From a virus: 64,000 nt of DNA. This document shows, one piece after another, positions 5,832-46,229 of the stretch. Positions within the stretch are counted from its first letter, which is position 1, and each line of letters opens with the position of its first letter. The position numbers were made by a program, and so were the translations under genes. Under the pieces are notes generated by a model. It was not told the DNA's origin, ran no database searches, and worked only from the letters and a program-made list of their open reading frames with translations. The stretch lies in IMG/VR virus record IMGVR_UViG_3300020430_000007, one strand, 5' to 3'.

Positions 5832-5832
5832 A

Positions 5833-7997: not shown

Positions 7998-8029
7998 CCA
8001 AAGATAGGAATTTCTAATAGTGTAGCGTT

Positions 8030-21727: not shown

Positions 21728-21782
21728 CCAGTTTACAAAGTGGTACATCATCGGTTGATTTACCACTTTTATCAATTATAAT
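21725..21782 (+). promoter_or_regulatory. Early promoter element copy 2
   Basis: TGACCAGTT-TACA-AAGTGGTACA, TATAAT at 21777 (48-nt spacing). Confidence 0.7.
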
Positions 21783-21807
21783 ACTATTATACAAACAAAT
21801 CTTTATT

Positions 21808-31014: not shown

Positions 31015-31359
31015 ATGCGTAAAATCGAATCACAAATGAACAATGCAATCAAAAACAAAATTGCATGGTCTAAAGACAACACACTCACCACTTTTGACAA
31101 TACTCTTGAAAATTGCTTTGTTTACCTACATGGAAATCATATTGCAACTTACAATTATGAATCTCAAGAGTTATCCTTATTCGATGGCGGATGGCAGTCC
31201 AATACAACTAAATCTAGACTCAACGCACTTTGCTATGAGTTTGCAACTGGTTTTTCAGTATTTCAAAAAAACTGGAATTGGTTTGTAAGTGACTTTCAAG
31301 CAAAAACAATCAAGAATTTCACTGACGGCATTACAGTAAATTACAACGGATGTTTCTAA
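31015..31359 (+). CDS. Conserved early phage protein (MRKIE..VYLHGNHIA..TTKSRLNA type)
   Basis: Recognisable motif set of a widespread small early phage protein. Confidence 0.75.
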   Translation: MRKIESQMNNAIKNKIAWSKDNTLTTFDNTLENCFVYLHGNHIATYNYESQELSLFDGGWQSNTTKSRLNALCYEFATGFSVFQKNWNWFVSDFQAKTIKNFTDGITVNYNGCF

Positions 31360-31573: not shown

Positions 31574-32225
31574 GTAACACGCATGAGACCCGCACTAACA
31601 ACAACTCAACCAAATTACACACGTAAAAGTATTACAAATACTAGTGTTATTCTCCCTGATAATGTATATAAATCGTTATTCAAAATGCATCCATCTGATG
31701 CTTACATATTCGGTATAGATTGTGAACCGCAAAATGTTATAAATGTATAAAAAAACATATGTTTGTTTTATATAAACTTTGTAAATGTTCTCACTAATTG
31801 TTACCTTAGCGAGCAACATAACAAAAGTCAAGTATAAGAATTGTGGAGTGACTTCGCCACTATCTAACACAAAAGACAGTCAATTTGTCCCTTATTCTTT
31901 ATAACAATTATGAGCAAATTGCAGGCACTATCTGAACTCGAAGCAGCAAGTACTTCAAGGACAGTTAGACACATTTTATACAAATATTACAGAGGTAACT
32001 GGTAACAATTATAAGACATTCAACAGATATATTATAACACATACTTGAAAGGATTGCAAGGGGTACGGATAACACGAATTGACAGTGTTTTTCGTGCCTT
32101 TTGTGTTATAATGGGGGGGCGGTTAGCTAAAAAAGCAAACAACCCTAACCTACAAAAGTATCCCAACGAGCGATATATAAAAAAAATCGCAAAAAAATTT
32201 TTTGCCCTTAAAAAAAATTCTGGAT
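31574..32225. other. Largely non-coding AT-rich region, candidate replication origin
   Basis: Longest ORF-poor stretch. Contains the AT palindrome TATAAAA-AAACATATGTTT-GTTTTATA, an extended -10 (TGTTATAAT, TATAAT at 32107) followed by G7, then A/T tracts and a GCGAT..ATCGC hairpin. Confidence 0.4.
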
Positions 32226-33173
32226 ATGTTTGTATACTGGGGATCTAATGATTCTGGCAAGGCACATCTGAAGCACTATGCCAAACTGAATAATAAAACG
32301 GTTCTCATGTGGTGGCCGAATGAGATTCATAAGGTAAAGACCACAACCCATATCAATGAATGGTCATGGGCGGATGAGACTGTTCATCGTATCAAGTATC
32401 ATGACTTGGACGGTTTTCGTAAATGTGAAAAGACAGAAAACCAGATATGGATAAACACGTTTCTATTTGAAAATTACGCTGCTACTATTAAGAGTACAAT
32501 CAACCCTACCATAAATAAAGGTAAATATGGAAAACATGAAAAACATAAGAAGATATACACAAAAGAACAAATAAAGAAATATACACAGAAGGAGTATATC
32601 AACACTTCAGTATACTTTGATATTATCTCAACGTTTAATAAAGCATATGGTAATGGTATCTGTAAACCATTGACTCATGATACTCTAAAGAATCACTATG
32701 ATGAGATACTGGAAGATGTAGATGTAATCACATTCACTCTCCCAGACTGGGCGATAGATGATTTAGAGGATGTACTCAGAAAGTCTGTCAATATCATACC
32801 GTATAAATCAAATCAACTTGATTCGGCAATCAGTAAATTAGATCACTTCAATAATGTAGAGAAGACAAATCTATTTGAAGTTTACAAAACTGATAAGAAG
32901 AGAGTATGGCGTTACCTAGATTGGTATCGTGAGGAAGTGGATAATACAATAGACAAACTATCACAGCGTAACATACCTTATACATTGTTTGATTTAGATA
33001 CTGATAGTTACCCTGAAACTTTTGGATGGGAAATTGACGTAGATCGTAAGTTCAGTCATCGAGGTGTAGCATGGAATCATGAGAATTATAACAGAGTCAA
33101 AGAAATTGCCGAGGAGTATGTCATAAATAAGTCAGGATACTATCACGATAAAAATGGCATACACAAGGGATGA
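32226..33173 (+). CDS. Family A paralogue (sixth copy, remote from the others)
   Basis: MFVYWGSNDSGK..LNNKT, NIIPYKSN, IPYTLFDLDTDSY. Confidence 0.6.
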   Translation: MFVYWGSNDSGKAHLKHYAKLNNKTVLMWWPNEIHKVKTTTHINEWSWADETVHRIKYHDLDGFRKCEKTENQIWINTFLFENYAATIKSTINPTINKGKYGKHEKHKKIYTKEQIKKYTQKEYINTSVYFDIISTFNKAYGNGICKPLTHDTLKNHYDEILEDVDVITFTLPDWAIDDLEDVLRKSVNIIPYKSNQLDSAISKLDHFNNVEKTNLFEVYKTDKKRVWRYLDWYREEVDNTIDKLSQRNIPYTLFDLDTDSYPETFGWEIDVDRKFSHRGVAWNHENYNRVKEIAEEYVINKSGYYHDKNGIHKG

Positions 33174-33369
33174 TGACGGTTTAGTAGGAAAAATCACACG
33201 GAACTCTGCAGGTAAATATGAGTGGAGTTTAGGTGAGTTTTATAAAGATGCTGAGATTGTTGGTAAGACTGGCACTTTTAATGGAAGGACACAACTTGTA
33301 AAAGGAACCGAAGATGATTACGACACCGCAGCAGCAGCACTAAAAGCAGCATTCGTGGCAGCAGAATAG
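33154..33369 (+). CDS. Small hypothetical protein, probably late
   Basis: 71 aa; CATAAATA late-promoter-like box at 33122-33129. Confidence 0.55.
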   Translation: MAYTRDDDGLVGKITRNSAGKYEWSLGEFYKDAEIVGKTGTFNGRTQLVKGTEDDYDTAAAALKAAFVAAE

Positions 33370-34121
33370 CATCGAAGCATACATATATCAGCTGAGTAGA
33401 CAATAAAAGTATATCCTTCTTGTCGCCTCTCAGAGAATTCTTCTTTAGGATCCTTTGAGAGGTGATTTCCTGGTATGTGATAACCGATTGGCACATTATT
33501 TCGTAGACATCCTTTCTTGAACTCTCCTAACACTTGCAAGTATTTGACATTTTCAAAATCACCTGCACAACCGAGAGATGCTGAAAGATCATACGGACCT
33601 ATCAGTGCAACATCCACATCGACACTTAGAATCTCATCGATGTTTTCCACAGCTTCGTAGTGTTCTATCATTGGTATGAGTAACGGTTGTTGTCCTAATC
33701 CTTCTCGGTGCTCATGAAATTGTATACCATACCCGTTTCCTCTGTTAAACCCTATACCCCGTGTGCCTCTGGGTGGCAGCGAGAAACTCTCTTTTATCTC
33801 AGAGAGTTGTGATTTATTTCTTATTTGAGGAACTATGATACCAGCAGCACCTTGTTCTAATGCTTCAATGGCACAATAGGAGTCTGGTTTAGATATACGT
33901 GCTAAAGGTAATGTATTGCCTAATTCCAATGCCCGAAATATGTTTGGTAACTGATCACGTGTAATATTACTATGTTCTAAGTCTACTCCTATAAAATCAA
34001 ATCCTTGTGATCCTAAGATCTCTGCAACCTCAGGACAGGGTAATTGCATCCAAGACCCTACAACATGTCTACCTTCTGCTAAATATTGTCGAATCTTTTG
34101 AACTGCTGCAAATTTATTCAT
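33318..34121 (-). CDS. HpcH/HpaI-family class II pyruvate aldolase
   Basis: GSWMQL..GFDFIGVDLEHS, PLARI, GAAGIIVPQI, PPRGTRG, MIEH, IGPYDLSASLG. Confidence 0.9.
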   Translation of the reverse strand: MNKFAAVQKIRQYLAEGRHVVGSWMQLPCPEVAEILGSQGFDFIGVDLEHSNITRDQLPNIFRALELGNTLPLARISKPDSYCAIEALEQGAAGIIVPQIRNKSQLSEIKESFSLPPRGTRGIGFNRGNGYGIQFHEHREGLGQQPLLIPMIEHYEAVENIDEILSVDVDVALIGPYDLSASLGCAGDFENVKYLQVLGEFKKGCLRNNVPIGYHIPGNHLSKDPKEEFSERRQEGYTFIVYSADICMLRCYSAATNAAFSAAAAVS

Positions 34122-34701
34122 GATTTTATTCTCTGGATGTAGTATAACATATGGTGATGAGTTAGTAAACCCCGAAAAAGACAGATTTTCTAAAAATCAT
34201 ATCAATATTGCACGGTGTGGATTGTCAAATGACATGATTGTCATGAGAACTATCGAGTATATTGAACAAAATCCCGATGTAGATTACGTTATAACGCAAT
34301 TTACAGTGCCTAGACGGTCAACATACTACAAAAATGAGTGGAAAAGCATCACACCATGGATAAAAAACGTGCAATCAGATGTATATTATAAGTATTTGGA
34401 CTCTCAAGAAATGAGAAATATGAATTTATGGAAAAATGTGTATATTTTAGAGCAATATTTACGTGACATACCGCATTATTTCTGGAGATTGAGTGAAAGC
34501 ACAGAGAAATCATCAACAAATGACGGTATTTTTAAGAATTTGGTGCCTTGGAGTAATATGAAGACCTTATATGAACTAATTGGCAGACCCGATACATCTC
34601 CTCAACACTATGTAACTGGTCACCCTAACAAAAAAGGTCATGATTTGATTGCTCAACACCTCCAAGGCGTTGTCCCAAACATATTATACCACTCATCGTA
34701 G
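34120..34701 (+). CDS. SGNH/GDSL-like hydrolase or acyltransferase, copy 1
   Basis: Block I ILFSGCSITYG, block II G-SND, terminal HPNKKGHDLIA. Confidence 0.7.
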   Translation: MILFSGCSITYGDELVNPEKDRFSKNHINIARCGLSNDMIVMRTIEYIEQNPDVDYVITQFTVPRRSTYYKNEWKSITPWIKNVQSDVYYKYLDSQEMRNMNLWKNVYILEQYLRDIPHYFWRLSESTEKSSTNDGIFKNLVPWSNMKTLYELIGRPDTSPQHYVTGHPNKKGHDLIAQHLQGVVPNILYHSS

Positions 34702-35567
34702 TATTTGGCAAGGTATCTTCGACCAAAACTCAAGTCATCATCAGTCAAATCCTCTAAATCAGAGGAATACTGGTCACTGAGGTTCTCATGGTGGGGTGCT
34801 TTTGTTCCCATTTCAGGATAATAGCAGTTAGGGTATAGATTTTTGATGTCAAAATGTAAAAAGTCACTAAGTTTTGCTAAAGCATCGTTTTTTCCACCCC
34901 ATAAATCTTCTGAAACTATGGTTGTGGTGCTAAAAATCGATTTATAACACTTTATTCTCTTAACAAACTCACAATTTATGCTATAATTGCCTTTCATAAG
35001 ATAATTTCTGAAATAATCTCTTGATGTAGGATATTTTTTACGTATATTTTTGTCATATTGGTATTGTGCCGACAATTCGCTGTATAATCTACGAACTGGG
35101 TCACGAAAAATTATTAAAACCTTAATTTTGAAGTGTTTTCTGAGTTGAGGTGCTATTTCTTTTATAAATTTTTGGGGAAGCATTGCATTGCTGTTAGAAA
35201 AATCAGCAACATATGCATATTCGTGTTTTATTCTCTCATAATGTCTTTTGTAATATTTGATATATGTCTCTAACGTCGGTTTTGTAAATAATTCTTCAAT
35301 CTCATCTAGATTTTCAGTAAAAGCATACTTATCTTTTAGATGCCACTCATTTTTGTAGTGTGGATTCTCGGATTTACCCATAATGAATTCATACCAAGGT
35401 CTTCTCCACTCCCATGCCTCATCGCTAAAAATATGATATAATAAGTGACTCTCCTTTTGTAGTCCTACATGGGCACACTTGTTAGAACGTTGTAATGTAA
35501 GGTGAAGAGGACTTGTAGCACTCCAACCAGTCCCTGCACCGATGATCAATGGAACTCTCATGTCCAA
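34653..35567 (-). CDS. Family B sulfotransferase-fold protein
   Basis: GAGTGWSATSPL (5'PSB-like), KE.H, DFSN, IIFRDPVRRLYS (3'PB-like), YYPEMG..DQY.SD. Confidence 0.7.
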   Translation of the reverse strand: MDMRVPLIIGAGTGWSATSPLHLTLQRSNKCAHVGLQKESHLLYHIFSDEAWEWRRPWYEFIMGKSENPHYKNEWHLKDKYAFTENLDEIEELFTKPTLETYIKYYKRHYERIKHEYAYVADFSNSNAMLPQKFIKEIAPQLRKHFKIKVLIIFRDPVRRLYSELSAQYQYDKNIRKKYPTSRDYFRNYLMKGNYSINCEFVKRIKCYKSIFSTTTIVSEDLWGGKNDALAKLSDFLHFDIKNLYPNCYYPEMGTKAPHHENLSDQYSSDLEDLTDDDLSFGRRYLAKYYDEWYNMFGTTPWRC

Positions 35568-36439
35568 GGCATAGTACCAAAGTAATTATACCACTCATCG
35601 TAATACTTTGTAAGGTGTTTTCTACCAAACTCAAGATCTTCTTCAGTCAAATCTTCTAAATCTGAAGACCATTGGTCTTTTAATTTCTTATGATGAGGTG
35701 CTTTTGTTCCCATCTCTGGAAAATATGCATTTGGCCACAATTTTTCAAACTTAAAATCTAAAAATTTCTCTAAGTTTTCTTGACAATTATTTTTTCCACC
35801 CCATAAATCCTCAGAAACGATACTTATGGTACTAAAATGCTCGTTGAATGATTTATAACTGCCAACATAATCAGAATTTGGAGTAATCTCTCCTTTTTTA
35901 AGATAACTTCTCCAATATTCTTTTGAAGTGCTATAACTATTTTGCAATTCTTTAGAATCTTGATATCTTTGAGACATTTCTGAGTATAATCTTCTTGTTG
36001 GATCTCTAAAAATCTTTAAAACCTTGATATCAAAATGTTTTTTTAATGTAGGAGCAATTTTTGCAATAAAATCTTTCGGTAAATTAGCATTACTGTTAGA
36101 AAAATCATGAACATACTTGAATTTGTGCTTCACACGTTCATAATGACGTTTATAATACTTGACATATATCTTTAAATTTGGACTTCTAGTGTAAAACTCT
36201 TTAATTTCATCTATATTATGATGTAACTTTTTAGAAGTCATCGAATTACCAACAAAACGTTTATACGAAGGTTCTCTCCATTGCCATACACTAGGGTCAT
36301 AAATATTCATCAGGAAATGGGGTTCTTTCAGAATACCTGGATGACTACATTTATTTGCACATGATAGTGTAAGATGAAGTGGAGTGGTCGCACACCAACC
36401 ATGTCCAGCTCCTATTATTAATGGAACTTTCTTATTCAT
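35558..36439 (-). CDS. Family B sulfotransferase-fold protein
   Basis: GAGHGWCATTPL, KEPH, DFSN, IFRDPTRRLYS, YFPEMG..DQWSSD. Confidence 0.7.
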   Translation of the reverse strand: MNKKVPLIIGAGHGWCATTPLHLTLSCANKCSHPGILKEPHFLMNIYDPSVWQWREPSYKRFVGNSMTSKKLHHNIDEIKEFYTRSPNLKIYVKYYKRHYERVKHKFKYVHDFSNSNANLPKDFIAKIAPTLKKHFDIKVLKIFRDPTRRLYSEMSQRYQDSKELQNSYSTSKEYWRSYLKKGEITPNSDYVGSYKSFNEHFSTISIVSEDLWGGKNNCQENLEKFLDFKFEKLWPNAYFPEMGTKAPHHKKLKDQWSSDLEDLTEEDLEFGRKHLTKYYDEWYNYFGTMPWT

Positions 36440-37085
36440 GAAAATATTATTCAGTGGTGATAGTTTTACTTATGGTGACGAATTATCAAATAGAGAAAAA
36501 GATCGTTTCTCAAGACTAGTTAGTGAACATTATGCTGCAGAAGAAATTAACAAGGCACAATGTGGTTCCTCAAACGATAAAATTGTTCGTGATGTATTTG
36601 AATATCTTCATCTGTTCAATGTTGACGCTGTAGTTGTTCAATTTTCAATATTACGTAGATTTGATGCTTATAAAGATGGTTGGATAGGAATGATGCCTGA
36701 AGATACAGGTGGAAAGTATTGTCATGCTCCAGATTGGAAGAAAAATATAGCAAGAGCATATTATAAACACGTTCAAGATGATAGAAAAGATCAAGAGCGT
36801 TATTTTCAACAAATTTTGTTGTTGCAATCATTTTTGAATCAAAAAAATATCCCATACGTTATGTTGGGTCTAGAGAGTTTTGAATATAGGCAGGAAAAGA
36901 TATATTATAATTACATCAAAGATTTTTGTGAGGATTTTGAATATATAATTCCAAATCTTATAGGAGGGTACAGATCTGAAAATTATTGTCCAGATCTCAC
37001 ACATATTAACTCTGCTTTGCATGGGATGCACCCAAATGAAAAGGGTCATAAAATCATAGCAAATCATATTATCAGTAAATTATGA
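36438..37085 (+). CDS. SGNH/GDSL-like hydrolase or acyltransferase, copy 2
   Basis: MKILFSGDSFTYGDEL, GSSND, HPNEKGHKIIA; start at ATG 36438. Confidence 0.7.
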   Translation: MKILFSGDSFTYGDELSNREKDRFSRLVSEHYAAEEINKAQCGSSNDKIVRDVFEYLHLFNVDAVVVQFSILRRFDAYKDGWIGMMPEDTGGKYCHAPDWKKNIARAYYKHVQDDRKDQERYFQQILLLQSFLNQKNIPYVMLGLESFEYRQEKIYYNYIKDFCEDFEYIIPNLIGGYRSENYCPDLTHINSALHGMHPNEKGHKIIANHIISKL

Positions 37086-38134
37086 AGATAAGGCATAAAC
37101 CTAGAATACCAGTCGCACCACCTCCAAAAAAACCAACTTTACTTATGAATATTGGTGTTGGTTGGTCTGCAACCACTCCATTCTTATATACTCTCTCAAT
37201 AGATCAAAGATACTGTCATCCTGGTCATATAAAAGAAAATCATTACCTTAGAATGATATTTGAGCAAGATTGTTGTAATAAATTTGACATACATAAATTT
37301 ATTTTATCAACATCAGCAAATGAAAAGCAATGGATATTTAGAAAATGGCAAAAAGAATTATTTGAGTACAGTTATCACTTTCTTGATGATCCAAATTACA
37401 TAAAAGATTGGTATTCGCTTCCAGTTACCATTGATAAGTATATTGATTATTACATAAAGCATTGGGAAGTAATAAAAAGTGATTTTCATGCCGTAGCTGA
37501 TTTTTCTAATCATAATTGGGCAATTCCTTATTATGAAAATGGTTCAGACATGATAAAGGAGATACAAAAAGAATTTGAACTAAAAGTTACAGTTCAATTT
37601 AGAGATCCTATAAAACGTTTGTACTCAGAGTTAGGAACTTGTTTTGTTGATAAGAGAGTTCCACATATGTTTACTTTAGGTGCAACATCAAAACTACTGA
37701 GAGGTAGAAAATACTTACAAAACAATCAACACAATAATTTTTTTAAATTTTGCTTAGACGATGGTGCTTGGGATAGTGCAAACTGTCGATACATTGATTT
37801 ATTGACAAAGTGGGAGTCGTTAGTTGGCACTGCCAACATATTACCTATCATAATGGAAGAATTTTGGAATCCTCAATATAGAAAACAACAATGTGAGAGA
37901 TTATCTAATTTTTTAGGAGCACCAATTCAAAAAATTCATCAAAATGCCTATTTTCCAGATATGGGTGCAGATGCACCTCACCACATAGGTCTTATAGATC
38001 AATGGACCTCTGATAAAGAAACAATTACTGAAGAAACTATAGAATATGCACTAAAATACATGAAACCGTGCTATACTGATTGGAAGTCTAAATTTGGAAG
38101 TGTACCTGAGTTGTGGACAAAGTATGAAGATTAA
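37082..38134 (+). CDS. Family B sulfotransferase-fold protein
   Basis: NIGVGWSATTPF, KENH, ADFSN, QFRDPIKRLYS, YFPDMG..DQWTSD. Confidence 0.7.
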   Translation: MKIRHKPRIPVAPPPKKPTLLMNIGVGWSATTPFLYTLSIDQRYCHPGHIKENHYLRMIFEQDCCNKFDIHKFILSTSANEKQWIFRKWQKELFEYSYHFLDDPNYIKDWYSLPVTIDKYIDYYIKHWEVIKSDFHAVADFSNHNWAIPYYENGSDMIKEIQKEFELKVTVQFRDPIKRLYSELGTCFVDKRVPHMFTLGATSKLLRGRKYLQNNQHNNFFKFCLDDGAWDSANCRYIDLLTKWESLVGTANILPIIMEEFWNPQYRKQQCERLSNFLGAPIQKIHQNAYFPDMGADAPHHIGLIDQWTSDKETITEETIEYALKYMKPCYTDWKSKFGSVPELWTKYED

Positions 38135-38735
38135 TTATGTTACTGATCCTTGGAAATGTGTAGAAATAGAAGATTTTCTACCTGAAGATAGGTGGAAAGA
38201 AATACAAGGACTAGCAAAAATAGAATTAGATAACTACCACTCTTCAAATACTAAAGAAAAGTCTGGTCATTATGTAAGATTCCTAGATTATGATATTATT
38301 CCAGAAACCAATAGTTTATTTACAGATATTGCTTTACCTCATCGTGAATATAAAGGTAAATTGAAAAAACTTGTGCATTGGGCAATTTCTCCTCCAAAAT
38401 GGAATTATCCAACTCATTGTGACAATAAATCCAGAATAAGCACTTCAATCATGTATATTTCTCCTGAGAATAGTGATGGTACTGTTCTACATAAGAACGC
38501 TAGTCAAAATGATGGAGGTGATCATGAAAAGGCAGATTTACCATCAACCTACACTTGTAAATTAGATTGGAAACCCAATAAGGTTTTCTTTCATAATAGT
38601 ATTCCAAATAAAACTTGGCATAGTATTCAAAATTCTACAGATCTTCCTAGAGTCGTATTAAGTTCGTTTCTAATACAAGAAGATTTGATTTTACCGAACA
38701 GACCTTGTTCAGGGTATGAAATTTCTATTAATTAA
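38124..38735 (+). CDS. 2OG-Fe(II) oxygenase
   Basis: HCD (HxD), GTVL, WKPN, distal WHS and R; IEDFLPE N-terminus. Confidence 0.8.
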   Translation: MKINYVTDPWKCVEIEDFLPEDRWKEIQGLAKIELDNYHSSNTKEKSGHYVRFLDYDIIPETNSLFTDIALPHREYKGKLKKLVHWAISPPKWNYPTHCDNKSRISTSIMYISPENSDGTVLHKNASQNDGGDHEKADLPSTYTCKLDWKPNKVFFHNSIPNKTWHSIQNSTDLPRVVLSSFLIQEDLILPNRPCSGYEISIN

Positions 38736-38741
38736 TAATTC

Positions 38742-39569
38742 GTGACTACCTTATTGATTAGTGCTGGCACTGCTTTCTCTGCTAGTTCACCTTTACACTA
38801 CACATTATGTTTAGATAACAAATATGCTCATACTGGTTTATGTAAGGAAAATTTTTACCTCTATTCACTTCAAGAGGGTGTGAATATTGAGTTTGGTCGT
38901 GACACATCAAAAAACAAACCTCCACAAATGACTATCACGCACGGATGTGAGGAGTTACATGGTAGAAGATCAATAAACTCTTACATAAGATATTATCAAC
39001 GGTTGTGGGAGCATATAAAGACTGATTATCAAGCAATTGCTGACTTTTCTAATCAAAATGCTTGTTTGACTGAAAAATTCATGAAATCTATAAAACCAAA
39101 TTTACTTAAGTGTTTTAATGTCAAAGTAATAATGATTTTTAGAGATCCTATACGTAGATTGTGGTCAGTTTGTAACAAAGGTAACATCAAAGATTTTCGT
39201 AGATGGGTAAGTGGTGAATTAGAACCAAATGCCATGTATGCTGACATTTATAAAAGATATAGGAATGTTTGGGGTGAAGAAAATGTTCATATGGTGGTTA
39301 TGGAAGAATTATGGGAAGGAAAGACGCAAGCACTCTCTAATTTTTTAAATTTCCCTATAAACACAATTCATGAAAATGTTTATTACCCTGAAAGAGGAAC
39401 AAAAGCACCGCATTACGAATACTTAATGGATCAATGGATATCTGACAAACATGATTTAGATGTAAAGACATGGGAGTATGCCATAAGCAATATGGGTTGG
39501 GTGTACAAAGATTTTAAGGAAACTTTTGGATACATACCTGATAAGTGGGGTCAATGGTATGAAACCTAA
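38742..39569 (+). CDS. Family B sulfotransferase-fold protein
   Basis: SAGTAFSASSPL, KEN, ADFSN, IFRDPIRRLWS, YYPERG..DQWISD. Confidence 0.7.
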   Translation: MTTLLISAGTAFSASSPLHYTLCLDNKYAHTGLCKENFYLYSLQEGVNIEFGRDTSKNKPPQMTITHGCEELHGRRSINSYIRYYQRLWEHIKTDYQAIADFSNQNACLTEKFMKSIKPNLLKCFNVKVIMIFRDPIRRLWSVCNKGNIKDFRRWVSGELEPNAMYADIYKRYRNVWGEENVHMVVMEELWEGKTQALSNFLNFPINTIHENVYYPERGTKAPHYEYLMDQWISDKHDLDVKTWEYAISNMGWVYKDFKETFGYIPDKWGQWYET

Positions 39570-40524
39570 ATTATTATTGAACGCTGGAACTTGTTTCTCA
39601 GCAACAAGTCCGTTGTGGTATACTTTAGGGTTAAATAACCACTATGCTCATACTGGACACGCAAAAGAGCACAATTATCTTTATCATATGATGATTGATG
39701 CGAAAAGGTCCATCAGTACACCTAGTCAACTCAATTCATCTGTTAGATTGACTCAAAAGTGGGAACAAACTGATTTGATAAAAAAAACCAAGAAGAAGGA
39801 GAAAAAGAGGGATGGAAAAGATGGATTCATGCATGTTTATCCTGAGATGACTAAAAGGTCACCTTTTATAGAAGGTAAGTGGACATTAGAAGAAAGAAGA
39901 GATTTTTTTGATAATCCAGAACTAAGTATTGACAAATATATTAAGTATTACCTAAAACATTGGGAAAACTTTAAATGTGAATATCAATCAGTTGCAGATT
40001 TCTCTAATACTAATGCTTGCTTGTCTGTAGAGTTTATGGAAAGTATAAAACCTAAATTATTAGAATATTTTGATATAAAAGTAACAATGATCTTTAGAGA
40101 TCCTATTCGTAGGTTATTTTCAGCGTGTAATAGAGTTCATTCTAAATCTGGTGGAATTATGGAAGGATTTAGAAATTGGATCCTATCTGACAGTATGGAA
40201 GAGAACGTTTACTACTCAAACATATATAATAGGCATTGTCAGGTATGGGGTAAAGAAAATGTAATGCCTATTATAATGGAGGAGTTCTCTACTGATAAAT
40301 TATCTGATTTCTTAGGTTATCGTTTAGTCACTGCTCATCAGAATTGTTATTATCCTGAAATGGGTTCTAATGCACCAAAATATCCTGGTTTGTCAGATCA
40401 ATATAGTTCAGATAAGATAGATTTGTATAAAGAGACTTATGAGTTTGCTTTAGTACATATGGAGAACATTTATAAATCATTTGAAGAAACTTTTGGTTAC
40501 ATACCCGAAGCATGGAAAAAATAA
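39559..40524 (+). CDS. Family B sulfotransferase-fold protein
   Basis: NAGTCFSATSPL, KEHN, ADFSN, IFRDPIRRLFS, YYPEMG..DQYSSD. Confidence 0.7.
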   Translation: MKPKLLLNAGTCFSATSPLWYTLGLNNHYAHTGHAKEHNYLYHMMIDAKRSISTPSQLNSSVRLTQKWEQTDLIKKTKKKEKKRDGKDGFMHVYPEMTKRSPFIEGKWTLEERRDFFDNPELSIDKYIKYYLKHWENFKCEYQSVADFSNTNACLSVEFMESIKPKLLEYFDIKVTMIFRDPIRRLFSACNRVHSKSGGIMEGFRNWILSDSMEENVYYSNIYNRHCQVWGKENVMPIIMEEFSTDKLSDFLGYRLVTAHQNCYYPEMGSNAPKYPGLSDQYSSDKIDLYKETYEFALVHMENIYKSFEETFGYIPEAWKK

Positions 40525-41402
40525 AGTTATTATGGAATATTGGGACCAACTATTCCGCTACAACTCCTTTTTGGTACACATTATCGTTAAATCATAAATT
40601 TTGCCATACTGGTCATCGTAAAGAATTGCATTGGCTTGATCTTCTGGAATCTCAAAAGTTTTGGAAAACGAAAATCAAGGGTAGACCACGTTATTACAAA
40701 TATTTCACTAATAGGATTTTTGGTTTTACTACATCACCTTTAGCATACCTAAAAACCGACAAACCATCAAAATTACAAAATGCTAGATGTTTCACTAAGG
40801 AAGAAGAAGAATACTTCTTCTCTTATCCAACATCAATTGAAAAGTACATTGATTATCGTAAAAGGCATTGGAATCACATAAAACATGAGTATCATGCATT
40901 AGGTGATTTTTCAAATAGTTATTGTTTATTATCTGAAGACTTTATGAGAGGTATTAAGGATAAATTACTAGAAGTCTTTGATCTAAAGATTACTGTATGC
41001 CTTAGAGACCCTGTTCGTCGTTTATGGTCCTCTAACCCTAATAAATCAGGCGGAATAGATAAAGTTTCTAATTATGGTAAAATATTACGGTCTTATTATA
41101 ATGTTTGGGGTAAAGACAATGTTCTTCCTATTATAATGGAGGAATTTTGGGATCCTAGTAAATATAGAGAGCAGACTGAAAGATTATCTAATTTTTTGAA
41201 TTATCCTATTACTAACATCTATAAAAACGTTTATTATCCTGAACTTGGTTCTAATTCACCACAATATGAATTTTTGAAAGATCAATGGAAAAATGAGAAG
41301 GATATTGATTTAGAAACATATAAACACATTTATTCTAAATTAGAATGGATTTACCAAGACTGTGAAAAAATTTTTGGTTATATCCCAGAAAAATGGCAAT
41401 AA
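40512..41402 (+). CDS. Family B sulfotransferase-fold protein
   Basis: NIGTNYSATTPF, KELH, GDFSN, CLRDPVRRLWS, YYPELG..DQW. Confidence 0.7.
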   Translation: MEKIKLLWNIGTNYSATTPFWYTLSLNHKFCHTGHRKELHWLDLLESQKFWKTKIKGRPRYYKYFTNRIFGFTTSPLAYLKTDKPSKLQNARCFTKEEEEYFFSYPTSIEKYIDYRKRHWNHIKHEYHALGDFSNSYCLLSEDFMRGIKDKLLEVFDLKITVCLRDPVRRLWSSNPNKSGGIDKVSNYGKILRSYYNVWGKDNVLPIIMEEFWDPSKYREQTERLSNFLNYPITNIYKNVYYPELGSNSPQYEFLKDQWKNEKDIDLETYKHIYSKLEWIYQDCEKIFGYIPEKWQ

Positions 41403-41426
41403 ATAAAAATACTTATTTTTATAGAT

Positions 41427-41519
41427 ATGAAAAGATTATGGCAATGGATAAAAGGTGAATACAAACTTTGGAAATTACGTAAGCAAGATCCATATATTTA
41501 CGAAGAAGATGATGACTAA
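41427..41519 (+). CDS. 30-aa microprotein (MKRLWQWIKGEYKLWKLRKQDPYIYEEDDD)
   Basis: Preceded by AATAAATA; K..LRK.DP.IY motif typical of small marine-phage ORFs. Not in the ORF track. Confidence 0.55.
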   Translation: MKRLWQWIKGEYKLWKLRKQDPYIYEEDDD

Positions 41520-42353
41520 TTACCAACTATGTGGTATATAACCAAATTTTTTCTCAAACCCTTCATATAACCAATTAAGTTTTTTTCTACCATAATCAAG
41601 ATCATCTTTTGATAAATCTTGCAAGTCAGATGTCCATTGGTGTTCTAAACCCTTTATATGCGGTGCTCTTGTTCCTCGTTCTGGAAAATAAAGATTTTTG
41701 CTCATTTTATCTATTTTCACACCTAGAAAATCAGACAAACCTTTTGGATTCTCCCAAACCTCCTCCATAATCACAGGATACACCTTTTTGAACGCAGATG
41801 ACCAATTTTTGTAAATTGTTACGTAGTCTGGTAATACAATTGAGGGTTTTTCTAAATTTGACCTCCAATATTCTAAACTATTAGAATATCTTTTATAACT
41901 GTCATTCCATTTTTCTTTGTACCATGTTGACATTTGAGAATATGATCTCCTGACTGGATTTCTCCATATTGTAGTGACTTTGACATCAAATTCGCTTTCA
42001 AGTCTTGGTGCAATCTGTCTCAAGAAGTATGCAGGTAAATCTCCGTTACTATTTGAGAAATCGCTGACACCTTTATGACTTTTAACAATATGTGATTTAA
42101 TATAATCAACATACCAGTCTAGAGTCGTGTCTTTTTTGACAAAATCTAATCCTCTTTTCTTATGATCCTTGTGCCAGTAAATATTTGCATGCTTTGGATT
42201 GTATTCCCTCTCATATAAGTAATATAGCACATTACACTCTGTAGTATGCTCTCTATTTGGGCATATCGCATATCCAATGTCTGAAAGTGTGTCGCAAAGC
42301 GGTTTAGTCGCAGACCACCCCACTCCAGCATTTATGTGCAATACGGGTTTCAT
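41520..42353 (-). CDS. Family B sulfotransferase-fold protein
   Basis: NAGVGWSATKPL, SDFSN, IWRNPVRRSYS, YFPERG..HQWTSD. Confidence 0.7.
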   Translation of the reverse strand: MKPVLHINAGVGWSATKPLCDTLSDIGYAICPNREHTTECNVLYYLYEREYNPKHANIYWHKDHKKRGLDFVKKDTTLDWYVDYIKSHIVKSHKGVSDFSNSNGDLPAYFLRQIAPRLESEFDVKVTTIWRNPVRRSYSQMSTWYKEKWNDSYKRYSNSLEYWRSNLEKPSIVLPDYVTIYKNWSSAFKKVYPVIMEEVWENPKGLSDFLGVKIDKMSKNLYFPERGTRAPHIKGLEHQWTSDLQDLSKDDLDYGRKKLNWLYEGFEKKFGYIPHSW

Positions 42354-42380
42354 AAATATCATGCATTCTCCTTATATATT

Positions 42381-43343
42381 TTGAAAATACCATTATTGAT
42401 ATTTGGTGGATGGGGTCATGCTGCATCTACACCATTTTATTATACTCTTTCTTTAGATAATAAGTATTGTCATGGTGGACACAGAAAGGAGACTGGATAC
42501 CTTAATGAATTAGAAAATTATGAGTTCTTTGATCAACCTATGTGGACGTATACTAGTGACCCATATGATAGGTTGATGGTAAAGGATTCTAGTATGCCAC
42601 CAATACTTGATAAGCATGTAAAGCATAGTGAGGAGTTTATCCGAGATTGGATAGCAGAACCACCAAGTATATGTAAGTACATTCATTATTATCTAATACA
42701 TTATGAAAACATCAAACATGAATATAAGGCAGTTGCTGACTTTACAAACGGCAATTCTTGGTTGAGAGAACCATTTCTTGACAAGTACGTGCCTGCATTG
42801 CAAGAGTTTTTTGATATAAAATGCATATTTGTTTCTAGAGATCCAGTCCGTAGATCATATTCAGATTTTAGTGCTAAGTTTACAGGAAATGATCCTAGTG
42901 GTAAAATGTTGAAAGAAGGTATGTTATACCCTAACAATCCCACTGACAAACATTATAATAATATACATGATATGTTTTGCGGAGAACTACGTAAGACTTG
43001 TACAAGGTTCTATGTTGAGTTTTATAAAAAATTCAGCAAATACTTCCCAACTCTTCAAATTGTGATGGAGGATTTTTGGGAACCTGATAATTTTACTGAG
43101 CAGACCGAAAGGTTATCCAATTTCTTAGGTTATCCTATTACAAAGATACATGAGAATGCTTTTTGGCCAGAAGCAGGTGAAAATGCACCTAAATACGATT
43201 TCCTGAAGGATCAATGGGGATCTGTAAGGGAACCACTAACAAAAGAGTTATACGATTATGGTAGAGAACAATTGGACCCAATCTATTCTCAATGGAAAGA
43301 AGAGTTTGGATCTTTGCCTAGTTCTTGGGGTAAACATATATGA
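42381..43343 (+). CDS. Family B sulfotransferase-fold protein
   Basis: FGGWGHAASTPF, KETG, ADFTN, VSRDPVRRSYS, FWPEAG..DQW. TTG start chosen by alignment with paralogues. Confidence 0.65.
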   Translation: MKIPLLIFGGWGHAASTPFYYTLSLDNKYCHGGHRKETGYLNELENYEFFDQPMWTYTSDPYDRLMVKDSSMPPILDKHVKHSEEFIRDWIAEPPSICKYIHYYLIHYENIKHEYKAVADFTNGNSWLREPFLDKYVPALQEFFDIKCIFVSRDPVRRSYSDFSAKFTGNDPSGKMLKEGMLYPNNPTDKHYNNIHDMFCGELRKTCTRFYVEFYKKFSKYFPTLQIVMEDFWEPDNFTEQTERLSNFLGYPITKIHENAFWPEAGENAPKYDFLKDQWGSVREPLTKELYDYGREQLDPIYSQWKEEFGSLPSSWGKHI

Positions 43344-44719
43344 TAGGGTTTAGCGAGGGATTTCATGACGCTGCAATTGCGGTTGTTCATAAAAATACTA
43401 TTAGTTACGCTGCACATTCTGAGAGATACTCAAAAAAGAAGCATGATAAAGTATTGAACTTAAATGCAGTCACCATGGCAAGGGGATTGAATATACATGA
43501 TGACATTGTAGCATTTTACGAAAACCCGTTATCAAAAAGAACTAGACAGTTATATGCAGGACAAAAAGCGTGGAGGAGAGATAGACGGTTATCTTTGCAA
43601 CCTAATAAGTATATGCAACATCATAAATCACACGCTGCTGCTGCATTTCAAACATCCAACTTTGAACACGCTGCGTGTGTGGTGGTAGATAGCATTGGTG
43701 AGTGGGATTGTTCCTCAGTGTGGACTGCTAATATGGTAAGAGGATCCGCAGTATATAAAAAAGTATGGTCTAGAAGATATCCTAAGTCTATAGGACTTTG
43801 GTATAGTGCACTGACTAAATGGGCAGGATTAAGACCATTAGATGAAGAATATATTTTTATGGGAATGGCAGCCTTCGGAAAACCTTGTTATACTAAAGAG
43901 TTACGAGCATTACTTTCTAAAAATAACCATAAAGGTATACGTGGACTAGAAGGTGATTCATGTGATGTAGCAAAAAGTGCGGAGGTTGTTCTTCAAGAGG
44001 AATTGTTCAAAATATTTGATATTGCTAAAAAATACAGTAACAACATTTGCTATGGAGGCGGAGTTGCACTAAACTGTGTTGTAAATACAAAACTAAGGGA
44101 AAGGTGCAATCTTTGGATTATGCCTAATCCTGGCGACGCTGGAGGTGCTTTAGGTGCAGCTTTACTTGCATATGGTAAAAAAGTTCAATTTACTCCCTAT
44201 CTCGGATGTAACATTAGGGGTTCGGTGGATCCAGAAGAGGTGGTCGATCACATACTCAAACATAAAATCGTTGGTGTTGCAAATGGTCGTGCTGAGTTTG
44301 GTCCTCGTGCTCTTGGTAATAGAAGTCTATTGGCGGATCCACGCCAAATTTCAACCAAAGATCTAGTCAACGAAATAAAACAACGTCAGAAGTTTAGACC
44401 ATTTGCTCCTGCTATACTAGAAGAGCATTGTCAGGAATGGTTTGATATGCCTGAGCATTCAAGGCATATGTCATATGTTTATCAATGTAAGCAGAGTGAC
44501 CTTATTCCTGCCTGTCTACACGTTGATAACTCTGCTAGAGTACAAACAGTGCCAGAGACATCTGAGAGCGTTCTGAGACCCATATTGGAGTGTTGGTATG
44601 AGAAGACAGGAATCCCTGTATTGTTGAATACATCTTTGAATGTTCGTGGAAAACCAATGGTAAACAATGTTGAAGATGCAAAATTGTTTTCTAGTAAATA
44701 TTCAGTCAAGGTTTTTTAA
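43340..44719 (+). CDS. Carbamoyltransferase (NodU/CmcH family)
   Basis: HDAA, ERYS..KHD, HHKSHAA, GGVALN, EFGPRALGNRS, RPFAP, HVDNSARVQTV, LLNTSLN. Confidence 0.95.
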   Translation: MIGFSEGFHDAAIAVVHKNTISYAAHSERYSKKKHDKVLNLNAVTMARGLNIHDDIVAFYENPLSKRTRQLYAGQKAWRRDRRLSLQPNKYMQHHKSHAAAAFQTSNFEHAACVVVDSIGEWDCSSVWTANMVRGSAVYKKVWSRRYPKSIGLWYSALTKWAGLRPLDEEYIFMGMAAFGKPCYTKELRALLSKNNHKGIRGLEGDSCDVAKSAEVVLQEELFKIFDIAKKYSNNICYGGGVALNCVVNTKLRERCNLWIMPNPGDAGGALGAALLAYGKKVQFTPYLGCNIRGSVDPEEVVDHILKHKIVGVANGRAEFGPRALGNRSLLADPRQISTKDLVNEIKQRQKFRPFAPAILEEHCQEWFDMPEHSRHMSYVYQCKQSDLIPACLHVDNSARVQTVPETSESVLRPILECWYEKTGIPVLLNTSLNVRGKPMVNNVEDAKLFSSKYSVKVF

Positions 44720-45435
44720 TGAAAATACTGTTTCATGGATGCTCAATTACTTGGGGTGACGAACTCGAAGATCGTGAAAATGAAAGATATAGTAAATTAG
44801 TTTCTAATCATTTTCTGACTGAAGACTGTAATATTTCTCATTGCGGGAATAGTAACGATAGAATTGTAAGAGAATCTATTGAACATCTACAAGACAATTG
44901 TTTTGATATTGTGGTATTGCAGTTTACTGTACACTCAAGAGTGGAGTGGTTTGATAAACAGGGTTTTCCCCATAGGTTTACACCACAACTTACATCAACT
45001 CATGGAAAATTAAAACTCAAGGGTATTGCAGGTAGAGATGATTTGAGAGAAAGAATGTTTTCTGCTGGTAAATGGTTTTATAGGTTTGTTTATAATGATA
45101 TTCTTGGTGTCGAAAATATGTGGAAAAATATTTTTCTTTTTGATTCTTACTGTAAGGCAAACAATATTACCTTCATCCCTATTTTAGCAGATCATTTTCA
45201 TGAGGTTATTCGTAGACCAGAAAAGTTTTATCATGGGGCAAATGGAACTGGTTGGTGGAAACCTTTATGTCAGGATATACCAATAACATATATTCATGAG
45301 GATATTATAGGTCATAAAAAGGATGGCATAGGAGATCATTACTATGGTGATTACCATGCAAAGGGAAATCATCCAAACGCTTTAGGACACCAAAAAATTG
45401 CAGAAAAACTTATTAAGTTGATAGAGACTATATAA
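44719..45435 (+). CDS. SGNH/GDSL-like hydrolase or acyltransferase, copy 3
   Basis: MKILFHGCSITWGDEL, GNSND, HPNALGHQKIA. Confidence 0.7.
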   Translation: MKILFHGCSITWGDELEDRENERYSKLVSNHFLTEDCNISHCGNSNDRIVRESIEHLQDNCFDIVVLQFTVHSRVEWFDKQGFPHRFTPQLTSTHGKLKLKGIAGRDDLRERMFSAGKWFYRFVYNDILGVENMWKNIFLFDSYCKANNITFIPILADHFHEVIRRPEKFYHGANGTGWWKPLCQDIPITYIHEDIIGHKKDGIGDHYYGDYHAKGNHPNALGHQKIAEKLIKLIETI

Positions 45436-45470
45436 TCTGTTATAATATAATTGGATTGCAACCCTATAGT

Positions 45471-46229
45471 ATGGCTAAAGGATTTAAGGTGGTAACCACT
45501 CCACCCGCTACAGAAAAAAAGGAAGACTGGTGGTCTGTAGAAAAAGGAAAAGAATTAATCAAAGGTAAAAGCATTGTTTTTTGTTTGCCTGGTCGTGGTG
45601 TTTCTTACATATTTTTAAAAGCGTTTGTGCAACTTTGTTTTGATTTAGTACAAAGTGGTGCAAGTATTCAAATATCTCAAGATTACTCATCAATGGTAAA
45701 CTTTGCACGATGTAAGTGTTTAGGTGCGAATGTGCTTAGAGGACCTGATCAATTACCATGGGACGGTAAACTGAAATATGACTATCAACTTTGGATTGAC
45801 AGTGATATTGTTTTCAACCTAGAAAATTTTTATCGAATAGTTTGTATGGACAAAGATATCGCTGCTGGTTGGTATGCGACTGAAGATGGTAAGACAACAT
45901 CCGTTGCACATTGGCTTGAAGAAGATGACTTCAAGGAAAATGGCGGAGTTATGAATCATGAGATGGTTGATGGCATTCAAAAACGCAAAAAACCATTTAC
46001 AGTTGACTACACTGGATTTGGTTGGTTATTAATTAAAAAAGGAGTGTTCGAGCATAAAGAAATGACTTATCCTTGGTTCGCACCTCAAATGCAGGTTTTT
46101 GAATCTGGAGAGGTTCAAGACATGTGTGGTGAAGATGTATCTTTTTGCTTAGATGCTATCAAGGCGGGATTTGAAATTTGGTGTGACCCTCAATGTCGTG
46201 TTGGTCATGAGAAAACAAGAATTATATAG
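45471..46229 (+). CDS. GT-A-fold glycosyltransferase-like protein (conserved in cyanomyoviruses)
   Basis: LWIDSD (DxD), GFGWLLIK..VFE, GEDVSFC, VGHEK. Confidence 0.7.
   Translation: MAKGFKVVTTPPATEKKEDWWSVEKGKELIKGKSIVFCLPGRGVSYIFLKAFVQLCFDLVQSGASIQISQDYSSMVNFARCKCLGANVLRGPDQLPWDGKLKYDYQLWIDSDIVFNLENFYRIVCMDKDIAAGWYATEDGKTTSVAHWLEEDDFKENGGVMNHEMVDGIQKRKKPFTVDYTGFGWLLIKKGVFEHKEMTYPWFAPQMQVFESGEVQDMCGEDVSFCLDAIKAGFEIWCDPQCRVGHEKTRII

What the first reader, a model, noticed from the sequence alone, without database searches (positions are those of the whole stretch)
34653..43343. Family B: eight sulfotransferase-fold paralogues that all replace the catalytic PSB lysine with an aromatic residue
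Seen: the loops read GTGWSAT, GHGWCAT, GVGWSAT, GTAFSAS, GTCFSAT, GTNYSAT, GVGWSAT and GWGHAAS. Downstream, KE (7 of 8), DF(S/T)N and R(D/N)Pxx(R)xxS are retained, plus a family-specific C-terminal N-x-(Y/F)-(Y/F/W)-P(E/D)xG..(A/S)P....L.(D/H)Q(W/Y). Established: PAPS sulfotransferases have GxxK(A/S)GT(T/S), where Lys contacts the transferred sulfate, and RxPxxRxxS binds the 3'-phosphate. Inference: consistent loss of Lys with intact frames and conserved other motifs suggests a new chemistry, a different 3'-phosphoadenosine donor (e.g. acyl-CoA), or non-catalytic PAP/glycan binding, diversified eightfold for different acceptors. This is the best candidate for an undescribed enzyme family in the window.
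Basis: partly seen in the sequence, partly recalled or inferred. Interest (0 to 1): 0.85.

Follow-up and report, generated by a model that had tools for sequence, protein, structure and literature searches.

The report
Lysine-less sulfotransferase-fold gene array in phage
An uncultured marine T4-like phage carries eight intact, selected copies of a virus-only branch of the sulfotransferase fold in which the lysine that normally drives sulfate transfer is always an aromatic residue, so what these enzymes do chemically is an open question.

Summary

- **Fold:** an AlphaFold model (pLDDT 84) matches heparan-sulfate 3-O-/N-sulfotransferases at Z about 16.
- **Lysine position:** rarer relatives with a normal Lys/Arg loop, and the solved bacterial enzyme 3rnl, align column for column. 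This puts W/F/Y/H exactly at the catalytic lysine position.
- **What is kept:** the 3'-phosphate motif, the loop Gly/Thr and the Glu base.
- **What the aromatic clade adds:** an Arg four residues before the motif Ser, and an acidic C-terminal loop.
- **Selection:** the loop column changed at least 22 times on the family tree, almost always from one aromatic residue to another. dN/dS against orthologues is 0.08-0.30.
- **Distribution:** 243 copies in 72 IMG/VR viral loci, 1-9 per locus. They sit beside a carbamoyltransferase, SGNH-like paralogues and the gp25/gp6 baseplate genes. One limited pattern scan found none in bacterial genomes.
- **Annotation:** no Pfam, NCBIfam or PHROG model matches.

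My reading is that these are active cytoplasmic tailoring enzymes for a phage-specified glycan. They still bind a 3'-phosphoadenosine donor, probably PAPS, but with a rewired catalytic centre. The donor and the chemistry are untested.

I class this as a new variant of a known kind. The scan also noted this same stretch in an overlapping window.

The parts
34653..35567 (-). Family B copy 1 (304 aa), loop G-T-G-W-S-A-T; the sequence that was modelled
   Evidence: dN/dS 0.18-0.25
35558..36439 (-). Family B copy 2 (293 aa), Trp at the Lys position
   Evidence: 86% identical orthologue in L002, dN/dS 0.22
37082..38134 (+). Family B copy 3 (350 aa), Trp; Pro/Lys-rich N-terminal extension that orthologues also carry
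   Evidence: dN/dS 0.21-0.22
38742..39569 (+). Family B copy 4 (275 aa), Phe at the Lys position
   Evidence: dN/dS 0.08-0.10
39526..40524 (+). Family B copy 5 (332 aa as listed), Phe. The real start is probably the ATG at about 39559, because the family N-terminus M-K-P-K begins there
   Evidence: dN/dS 0.09-0.13
40512..41402 (+). Family B copy 6 (296 aa), Tyr at the Lys position
   Evidence: dN/dS 0.24
41520..42362 (-). Family B copy 7 (280 aa), Trp; has T-E instead of K-E and a Lys four residues after the Trp
   Evidence: nearest orthologue 53% identical, dS saturated
42336..43343 (+). Family B copy 8 (335 aa), His at the Lys position (G-W-G-H-A-A-S); the only copy with a weak Sulfotransfer_1 hit, below the cut-off
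   Evidence: dN/dS 0.17-0.23
34120..34701 (+). SGNH/GDSL-like paralogue interleaved with the array
   Evidence: G-C-S-x-T-x-G-D-E start; homologues in 47 of 75 family-B loci
36384..37085 (+). SGNH/GDSL-like paralogue (DUF6071, Lipase_GDSL_2); probable start near 36438
38094..38735 (+). Conserved ORF of unknown family inside the array. It has an H-x-D ... H pattern by eye, which is not a tested assignment
   Evidence: no Pfam, PHROG or PDB hit; homologues in 10 of 75 loci
43340..44719 (+). NodU/CmcH-type carbamoyltransferase, the most constant neighbour of the array
   Evidence: Pfam Carbam_trans_N/C, phrog_1601; present in 52 of 75 loci and in the distant locus L007
44719..45435 (+). Third SGNH-like paralogue, itself from a multi-copy family
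   Evidence: 138 ORFs of this family in the fetched loci; it cross-hits the ORF at 36438-37082 at 3e-25
45456..46229 (+). phrog_1574 protein (unknown function; faint glycosyltransferase similarity) between the island and gp25/gp6
33318..34121 (-). HpcH/HpaI aldolase-like gene at the left edge of the island
   Evidence: Pfam PF03328, E 4e-17; co-occurs in 10 of 75 loci

Best explanation
The eight genes encode soluble cytoplasmic enzymes of a virus-specific clade of the carbohydrate-type (heparan-sulfate 3-O/N-sulfotransferase-like) fold. They keep everything needed to hold a 3'-phosphoadenosine 5'-phospho-X nucleotide: the loop Gly and Thr/Ser, the Arg and Ser of the 3'-phosphate motif, and a conserved Tyr. 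They also keep the Glu that deprotonates the acceptor. The loop Lys that normally stabilises the leaving group has been replaced by a selected aromatic ring. I propose that each paralogue is an active, regiospecific tailoring enzyme for a different hydroxyl of a phage-specified glycan or glycoconjugate. These enzymes would work alongside the neighbouring carbamoyltransferase and SGNH-like acyl-transfer or esterase paralogues. The donor is most likely still PAPS. In this reading the aromatic ring stacks on the acceptor sugar or closes the site. The cationic role of Lys is taken over by the clade-enriched Arg four residues before the motif Ser, or by a metal held by the conserved acidic C-terminal loop. 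Shown: the fold, the position of the substitution, the retained motifs, purifying selection, and the viral array context. Inferred: catalysis, the donor, a glycan acceptor, and the compensating residue.
For: Fold: Foldseek top hits are 3-OST-3, TPST, CurM ST and NDST. VIA-align gives Z 16.1, rmsd 3.5 A over 222 residues to 1t8t, and Z 15.9 to 1nst. The profile matches 3rnl at E 2.4e-11.

Position: K/R-loop relatives and 3rnl align their Lys to the aromatic column and their K-E-x-H-F-F to the family's K-E.

Retained core in 223 viral copies: Gly12 215, Thr18 189, Arg155 218, Arg160 212, Ser163 214, Tyr201 204, Glu220 220, Glu39 179, Lys38 187.

Selection for an aromatic: at least 22 changes at the column, about 19 of them among W/F/Y/H.

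Clade-enriched Arg159: 196 R plus 8 K of 223 copies, against D/T/E in 3rnl and the 3-OSTs.

Coupling: the two nested departures from an aromatic residue (P0101 Arg, P0075 Ser) both have a degraded C-terminal loop.

Purifying selection: dN/dS 0.08-0.30.

Soluble: maximum 19-residue hydropathy is 1.22 or lower.

Context: 1-9 copies per locus in 72 viral loci. Carbamoyltransferase is present in 52 of 75 loci and SGNH-like genes in 48 of 75. The arrays sit next to gp25/gp6. A family member lies directly beside a CMP-sugar cytidylyltransferase in L008.
Against: A Lys or Arg in the PSB loop is treated as defining for PAPS sulfotransferases (review PMC11625862). From my own knowledge, mutating it in several enzymes removes most activity.

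Phe cannot hydrogen-bond, so the aromatic residue cannot itself replace the Lys.

Arg159 is also basic in about half of the K/R-type relatives. Its position near the reaction centre could not be measured.

One subclade (the 'C-Q' type) has lost the Glu base as well.

No PAPS-synthesis gene was found in the window ORFs scanned or in four related fragments. These are partial genomes, and the host may supply PAPS.

No glycosyltransferase or acceptor has been identified.
Confidence: 0.4

Rival explanations
1. Same scaffold, different chemistry. The proteins bind a 3'-phosphoadenosine nucleotide but transfer something other than sulfate. CoA's 3'-phospho-ADP part is isosteric with PAPS, so an acyl-CoA or CoA-type donor is possible. 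PAP could also be the leaving group for a phosphoryl-centred rather than sulfuryl-centred transfer, helped by a metal on the acidic loop.
For: Loss of the cation and gain of a selected aromatic ring at the reaction centre. New conserved acidic positions at D/E252, D265 and D270. Constant association with SGNH-like acyl-transfer or esterase paralogues. A normal K-type copy sits next to a W-type copy in L079, which suggests the two are not redundant.
Against: No sulfotransferase-fold enzyme with such a donor is known to me. The Glu base stays where it serves attack on the group directly attached to the 5'-phosphate, which would be far from a CoA thioester. Nothing here tests ligand preference.
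Confidence: 0.25
2. Non-catalytic pseudoenzymes. These would be PAP- or glycan-binding proteins acting as scaffolds, specificity subunits for the neighbouring enzymes, or lectin-like virion or assembly factors near the baseplate genes.
For: The defining catalytic Lys is absent from every copy. An aromatic residue in a sugar-binding position is typical of lectins (my own knowledge). One subclade also lacks the Glu base. The arrays lie beside tail-fibre and baseplate genes.
Against: Nucleotide-binding residues and the Glu base are conserved as tightly as in enzymes: Arg155 218 of 223, Ser163 214 of 223, Glu39 179 of 223. All eight window copies keep Glu. No active K-type partner is present in the window, and only 3 K-type copies occur among 223.
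Confidence: 0.2
3. Decaying or drifting duplicates of a former sulfotransferase gene, with no function.
For: Loss of the catalytic residue, and many tandem copies.
Against: All frames are intact. dN/dS is 0.08-0.30 for seven copies. There are 35 invariant columns among the paralogues. The aromatic state is maintained through about 19 substitutions. The clade is widespread, with 243 copies in 72 viral loci.
Confidence: 0.03

Closest known systems
Heparan sulfate 3-O-sulfotransferases (3-OST-1/3/5) and the N-sulfotransferase domain of NDST1
   Same: Best structural matches: Z 14-16 with about 225 aligned residues. They share the R-(D/E)-P-x-x-R-x-x-S motif and a Glu base in a (K/A)-E-x-H-F-F-like segment. 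There is a weak match of the N-x-Y-(F/Y) loop.
   Different: Those enzymes have Lys in the PSB loop and basic residues in the C-terminal loops that bind anionic heparan sulfate. Family B has an aromatic residue in the loop, an extra Arg before the motif Ser, and acidic residues in the C-terminal loop. Sequence identity is only 12-18%.
Bacterial sulfotransferase of Alicyclobacillus acidocaldarius (PDB 3rnl; function not characterised as far as I know)
   Same: Closest solved sequence relative: E 2.4e-11 with the mixed profile. Both the PSB loop and K-K-E-A-H-F-F align. Z is 15.6.
   Different: It has the canonical G-A-A-K-C-G-T-S-S loop and lacks the P-(D/E)-x-G ... D-Q-W block.
K/R-type relatives from marine metagenomes and viral contigs (for example P0114, P0126, P0103 and the L079 copy)
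   Same: Same family by HMMER (E 1e-25 to 1e-37). They share K-E, D-F-S, the 3'-phosphate motif and overall length.
   Different: They keep Lys or Arg in the loop and mostly lack the C-terminal N-x-Y-x-P-(D/E)-x-G and D-Q-W motifs. Eleven of them form one side of the tree. They are rare: 3 of 223 copies in the viral loci.
Stf0, NodH and TPST, the sulfotransferases with Arg instead of Lys in the PSB loop
   Same: They show that the loop cation can vary within active enzymes (review PMC11625862). TPSTs are among the fold matches.
   Different: The replacement there is still a cation. In Family B no cation remains at that position.

Membership tests
PAPS-dependent sulfotransferase superfamily (Sulfotransfer_1/3 type) | alpha/beta fold with a central parallel sheet, a strand-loop-helix (PSB) and a strand-turn-helix (3'-PB) | tested here: met
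   AF2 model with pLDDT 84; Foldseek prob 1.00 to many sulfotransferases; VIA-align Z 16.1 to 1t8t and 15.9 to 1nst
PAPS-dependent sulfotransferase superfamily (Sulfotransfer_1/3 type) | catalytic Lys (or Arg) in the 5'-PSB loop | tested here: not met
   W/F/Y/H in all eight copies. The column aligns to Lys of the K-type relatives and of 3rnl. 213 of 216 aligned viral copies are aromatic. The review PMC11625862 names Lys/Arg as defining.
PAPS-dependent sulfotransferase superfamily (Sulfotransfer_1/3 type) | PSB-loop Gly and Thr/Ser that bind the 5'-phosphate | tested here: met
   Gly12 in 215 of 223 copies; Thr/Ser18 in 213 of 223
PAPS-dependent sulfotransferase superfamily (Sulfotransfer_1/3 type) | 3'-phosphate-binding motif R-x-P-x-x-R-x-x-S with the conserved Ser | tested here: met
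   Invariant in the eight copies. Arg155 in 218 of 223 copies and Ser163 in 214 of 223. The motif aligns to 3rnl and the 3-OSTs.
PAPS-dependent sulfotransferase superfamily (Sulfotransfer_1/3 type) | catalytic base (Glu in the HS-type enzymes, His in the cytosolic type) | tested here: met
   Glu39 is in all eight copies and aligns to the Glu of K-K-E-A-H-F-F in 3rnl. The equivalence is by alignment only. Glu is present in 179 of 223 copies across the clade.
PAPS-dependent sulfotransferase superfamily (Sulfotransfer_1/3 type) | score above the Pfam gathering threshold | tested here: not met
   Only copy 8 hits PF00685, at 13.5 bits against a cut-off of 22. The other seven have no hit.
PAPS-dependent sulfotransferase superfamily (Sulfotransfer_1/3 type) | binds PAPS and transfers sulfate | not testable with these tools
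   Needs purified protein. No ligand docking or model coordinates were available.
P-loop nucleotide kinases (Walker A G-x-x-x-x-G-K-[ST]) | Walker A lysine | tested here: not met
   The loop is G-x-x-aromatic-[SCA]-[AG]-[TS], with no Lys before the Thr

The most novel reading that the evidence does not exclude
The aromatic clade is a new enzyme class built on the sulfotransferase scaffold. It would still use 3',5'-ADP (PAP) as the leaving group or handle, but transfer a group other than sulfate. One example is a phospho-linked or acyl group from a CoA-like 3'-phospho-ADP donor. Catalysis would be assisted by a metal on the conserved acidic loop or by a relocated Arg. Marine T4-like phages would have expanded it into arrays of up to nine to write a complex modification code on a virion or cell-surface glycan.
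Probability: 0.2. Interest if true: 0.85.

Novelty: new variant of a known kind. Interest (0 to 1): 0.62.

Why it matters
A cation in the PSB loop is part of the working definition of a sulfotransferase. A large, selected, virus-only clade that swaps it for an aromatic ring while keeping the nucleotide-binding core has one of two meanings. Either sulfuryl transfer can be catalysed in a different way, through a migrated catalytic residue, or the fold has been recruited to a new donor or reaction.

These genes are invisible to Pfam, NCBIfam and PHROG annotation, yet they are among the most expanded gene families in an abundant group of uncultured marine myoviruses. They sit next to the host-recognition apparatus. 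They therefore probably shape a phage or cell-surface glycan that current viromics ignores. The proteins are small, soluble and directly testable.

Tried and rejected
- **Curated libraries:** Pfam, NCBIfam and PHROG scans of the eight proteins gave no family.
- **Window's own genome:** it is not held, so PAPS-synthesis genes could not be sought genome-wide.
- **APS kinase:** an APS-kinase search of four related viral fragments found nothing, but these are 15-22% complete. No APS kinase or ATP sulfurylase appeared among the window ORFs scanned.
- **Bacterial and archaeal genomes:** one degenerate-pattern scan of 185,579 genomes found no relative. This is weak evidence for absence.
- **GenBank phages:** only the uncultured Marine virus AG-345-D19 has homologues. 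No isolate does.
- **Context of K-type relatives:** their contigs were too short to be useful.
- **Fused forms:** a search of longer proteins found none, which is weak evidence.
- **Family A versus Family B:** profile comparison shows no relationship (probability 0.2%).
- **Literature:** searches found no description of a lysine-less sulfotransferase clade or of these phage genes. Iyer et al. 2010 (PMC2938197) discuss other sulfotransferases and tandem dioxygenase arrays in cyanophages, not this family.
- **Residue distances:** distances around Trp15 could not be measured because model coordinates are not exposed.
- **Complex prediction:** not used, because no protein-protein claim is made.
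- **Decay hypothesis:** rejected on dN/dS.


Full report
**What the window is.** PHROG scans identify tail-fibre proteins at 15-10999 and baseplate wedge proteins from 46930 onward. A gp25 homologue lies at 46526-46930, and a Kyanoviridae Gp96 homologue (E 7e-42) at 31015-31359. The gp6-like protein is 64% identical to a contig of the uncultured 'Marine virus AG-345-D19' and about 50-53% identical to Synechococcus myoviruses. The window is therefore part of an uncultured marine T4-like, Kyanoviridae-related myovirus. No whole genome is held for it, and the host is not established.

**The observation.** The eight ORFs are at exactly the stated coordinates and are intact. They align over their whole length at 30-58% identity to the first copy, with 35 invariant columns. 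All quoted loops and downstream motifs are present. None has a hydrophobic segment typical of a membrane or signal sequence; maximum 19-residue hydropathy is 1.22 or lower. The listed TTG start of copy 5 is probably too far upstream, because the family's usual N-terminus begins at an ATG near 39559.

**Fold.** No Pfam, NCBIfam or PHROG family is matched. Only copy 8 gives a sub-threshold Sulfotransfer_1 hit, 13.5 bits against a cut-off of 22. A profile of the eight copies weakly hits sulfotransferases over the R-D-P-x-x-R-x-x-S region (3rnl E 1.6e-3; 3-OST-5 and 3-OST-1 E about 0.015). An AlphaFold2 model of copy 1 has mean pLDDT 84.4 and pTM 0.85. Foldseek ranks 3-OST-3, TPST1/2, the CurM and olefin-synthase sulfotransferase domains, 3rnl and NDST1 first. 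VIA-align gives Z 16.1 (rmsd 3.5 A, 222 residues) to 3-OST-3, 15.9 to the NST domain and 15.6 to 3rnl. Cytosolic SULTs score about Z 10. The fold is a carbohydrate-type sulfotransferase.

**Whether the aromatic residue sits at the lysine position.** It does, on three lines of evidence.
- An exhaustive profile search of 1.84 billion representatives found 1234 hits at E<=1e-3 and 114 at E<=1e-30. Among the 150 returned, twelve more distant members carry a canonical G-x-x-K/R-[SC]-G-T-T loop. In both MAFFT alignments their Lys/Arg occupies the same column as W/F/Y/H.
- A mixed profile (A2) hits 3rnl at E 2.4e-11. Its N-terminal segment aligns the 3rnl loop G-A-A-K-C-G-T-S-S and the following K-K-E-A-H-F-F to the family's loop and K-E motif.
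- In the model, strand 5-12 is followed by a loop and then helix 18-28. Trp15 therefore lies three residues before the first helix residue, as Lys does in K-x-G-T.

Residue-level superposition could not be done because model coordinates are not exposed.

**What is kept and what is new.** The counts below come from 223 non-duplicate viral copies.

| Position | Count of 223 |
|---|---|
| Gly12 | 215 |
| Thr18 (plus Ser) | 189 (plus 24) |
| Lys38 | 187 |
| Glu39 | 179 |
| Asp122 | 214 |
| Phe123 | 202 |
| Arg155 | 218 |
| Arg160 | 212 |
| Ser163 | 214 |
| Tyr201 | 204 |
| Glu220 | 220 |

The nucleotide-binding core and the presumed Glu base are thus conserved at enzyme-like levels.

Features enriched in the aromatic clade relative to the K/R-type relatives are as follows:
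- Arg159, four residues before the motif Ser: R in 196 and K in 8 of 223 copies. The aligned residue is D, T or E in 3rnl and the 3-OSTs, and it is basic in only about half of the K/R relatives.
- Pro20 and Met219.
- A C-terminal block (N/C)-x-(Y/F)-x-P-(D/E)-x-G ... P ... L-x-(D/C)-Q-(W/Y)-x-S-D.

The first part of that block aligns weakly to the N-x-(F/L)-Y-F loop of 3-OST-1 and 3-OST-5, so it is not entirely new. Its conserved residues are acidic where the 3-OSTs are basic. No new conserved Lys or His appears.

**Evolution of the substitution.** On a tree built without the loop columns, eleven K/R-type sequences form one side and the aromatic sequences the other. Two exceptions are nested among the aromatic sequences: P0101 (Arg) and P0075 (Ser). 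Both have a degraded or missing C-terminal block. That amounts to three coincident events, which is suggestive of functional coupling between the aromatic residue and the C-terminal loop but is not a statistical proof. The loop column needs at least 22 changes on this tree, and about 19 of them are exchanges among W, F, Y and H. Most of those exchanges need two nucleotide changes, so an aromatic ring is positively required and is not merely tolerated. Phe makes up about 18% of copies, so a hydrogen bond from this residue cannot be the common function. Stacking or packing is more likely. One subclade (the 'C-Q' type, for example in L007) has also lost the Glu base.

**Selection.** Nei-Gojobori dN/dS against orthologues in three related viral contigs is 0.08-0.30 for seven copies. 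For copy 7, dS is saturated. The genes are not decaying.

**Distribution and neighbourhood.**
- Close homologues are unnamed marine metagenome proteins from Tara, JGI and ENA, with no Pfam domain.
- ESM-Atlas clusters nearest to copy 3 are 90-100% viral. The nearest named clusters are bacterial sulfotransferases.
- GenBank phages contain the family only in Marine virus AG-345-D19.
- A pattern scan of IMG/VR returned 72 loci. An HMM finds 243 copies in all fetched loci, with 1-9 per locus.
- One pattern scan of GTDB genomes found none. This is weak evidence.

In 75 non-duplicate loci, the carbamoyltransferase is present in 52, SGNH-like paralogues in about 48, the phrog_1574 protein in 50, gp25 in 48 and gp6 in 46. 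The recurrent order is Kyano_Gp96 ... [family B array mixed with SGNH-like paralogues] - carbamoyltransferase - SGNH-like - phrog_1574 - gp25 - gp6. The distant 'C-Q' subclade in L007 is also tandem and next to a carbamoyltransferase. In L008 a family member lies directly upstream of a CMP-sugar cytidylyltransferase. L079 has a K-type copy immediately beside a W-type copy, which argues that the two types are not interchangeable.

**Interpretation.** Several facts point to active enzymes that bind a PAP-type nucleotide and act on varied acceptors:
- the 5'- and 3'-phosphate-binding elements and the Glu base are retained;
- selection is purifying;
- the proteins are soluble;
- length variation concentrates in two inserts, after the first helix and after the 3'-phosphate helix, which by analogy are where sulfotransferases bind acceptors.

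The neighbours are all sugar-tailoring or sugar-activating types: carbamoyltransferase, SGNH-like proteins, an HpcH-type aldolase and a CMP-sugar cytidylyltransferase. A phage-specified glycan or glycoconjugate is therefore the most likely acceptor.

The donor cannot be settled. I put 0.40 on PAPS with a rewired centre (Arg159 or a metal on the acidic loop replacing Lys, with the aromatic ring stacking on the acceptor). I put 0.25 on a different donor or chemistry, 0.20 on non-catalytic binders and 0.03 on decay. The rest covers readings not considered here.

The review PMC11625862 states that the working definition of a sulfotransferase rests on the PSB Lys/Arg, the PB-helix Ser and the sheet architecture. 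Family B meets two of these three, so it should not be filed as an ordinary member.

**Limits.** There is no ligand, activity or expression evidence. The host and full genome are unknown. The compensating-residue idea rests on conservation alone. The coupling between the aromatic residue and the C-terminal loop rests on three events. The absence from cellular genomes rests on one narrow scan plus Atlas taxonomy.

**Earlier notes.** The scan had already noted this same stretch in an overlapping window (e1-5896294). It had also noted the SGNH paralogues, Family A and a possible Kdo-like pathway. I checked those only in part.

Noticed in passing
window 13953-17410(-), 18129-19034(-), 32202-33173(+): 'Family A': six divergent paralogues with no Pfam or PHROG hit. 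The AF2 model is only moderate (pLDDT 65). Its best fold matches are generic P-loop kinase or sulfotransferase-like (2axp Z 8.2, Stf0 Z 7.8), which is inconclusive. Profile comparison shows no relationship to Family B. Homologues occur in up to 17 of 75 family-B loci.
   Followed up: partly
window 17407-18123(-), with 13109-13513(-), 13510-13965(-) and 33318-34121(-): A KdsB-like CMP-sugar cytidylyltransferase (CTP_transf_3, E 7e-28) and an HpcH/HpaI aldolase-like gene. The two small neighbours, which earlier notes call HAD and SIS, gave no Pfam hit at E<=0.01. A possible Kdo-like sugar-acid pathway that may feed the glycan.
   Followed up: partly
window 34120-34701, 36384-37085, 44719-45435 (all +): Three SGNH/GDSL-like paralogues with a G-(C/D)-S-x-T-x-G-D-E start. 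This family is itself expanded in related phages: 138 ORFs in the fetched loci, up to five or more per locus. It co-varies in copy number with Family B.
   Followed up: partly
L079:4282-5226(-) next to L079:5230-6237(-): A canonical K-type loop copy (G-L-M-K-C-G-T-T) sits directly beside a W-type copy in one viral contig. This natural pair would suit a comparative assay.
   Followed up: no
L007:2074-5088 and representatives P0070-P0128: A 'C-Q' subclade of Family B has lost the Glu base (K-E becomes K-I, K-S, K-N and so on) and has Cys instead of Asp before the conserved Gln. It may be a further functional shift.
   Followed up: no
window 24262-27957(+): A radical-SAM-like ORF (weak hit), an unassigned ORF, and two N6/N4 DNA methyltransferases (E 2.5e-48 and 4.8e-56) in tandem, between the two glycan-related blocks.
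   Followed up: no
window 19523-22938(+): A large phrog_459 'peptidase' (E 1.5e-232) followed by an AAA_5 ATPase. The same pair lies next to a Family B gene in L008.
   Followed up: no
window 39526-39559: The mechanical TTG start of copy 5 overlaps copy 4 by 44 nt. The ATG at about 39559 matches the family N-terminus and leaves a short overlap typical of translational coupling.
   Followed up: partly
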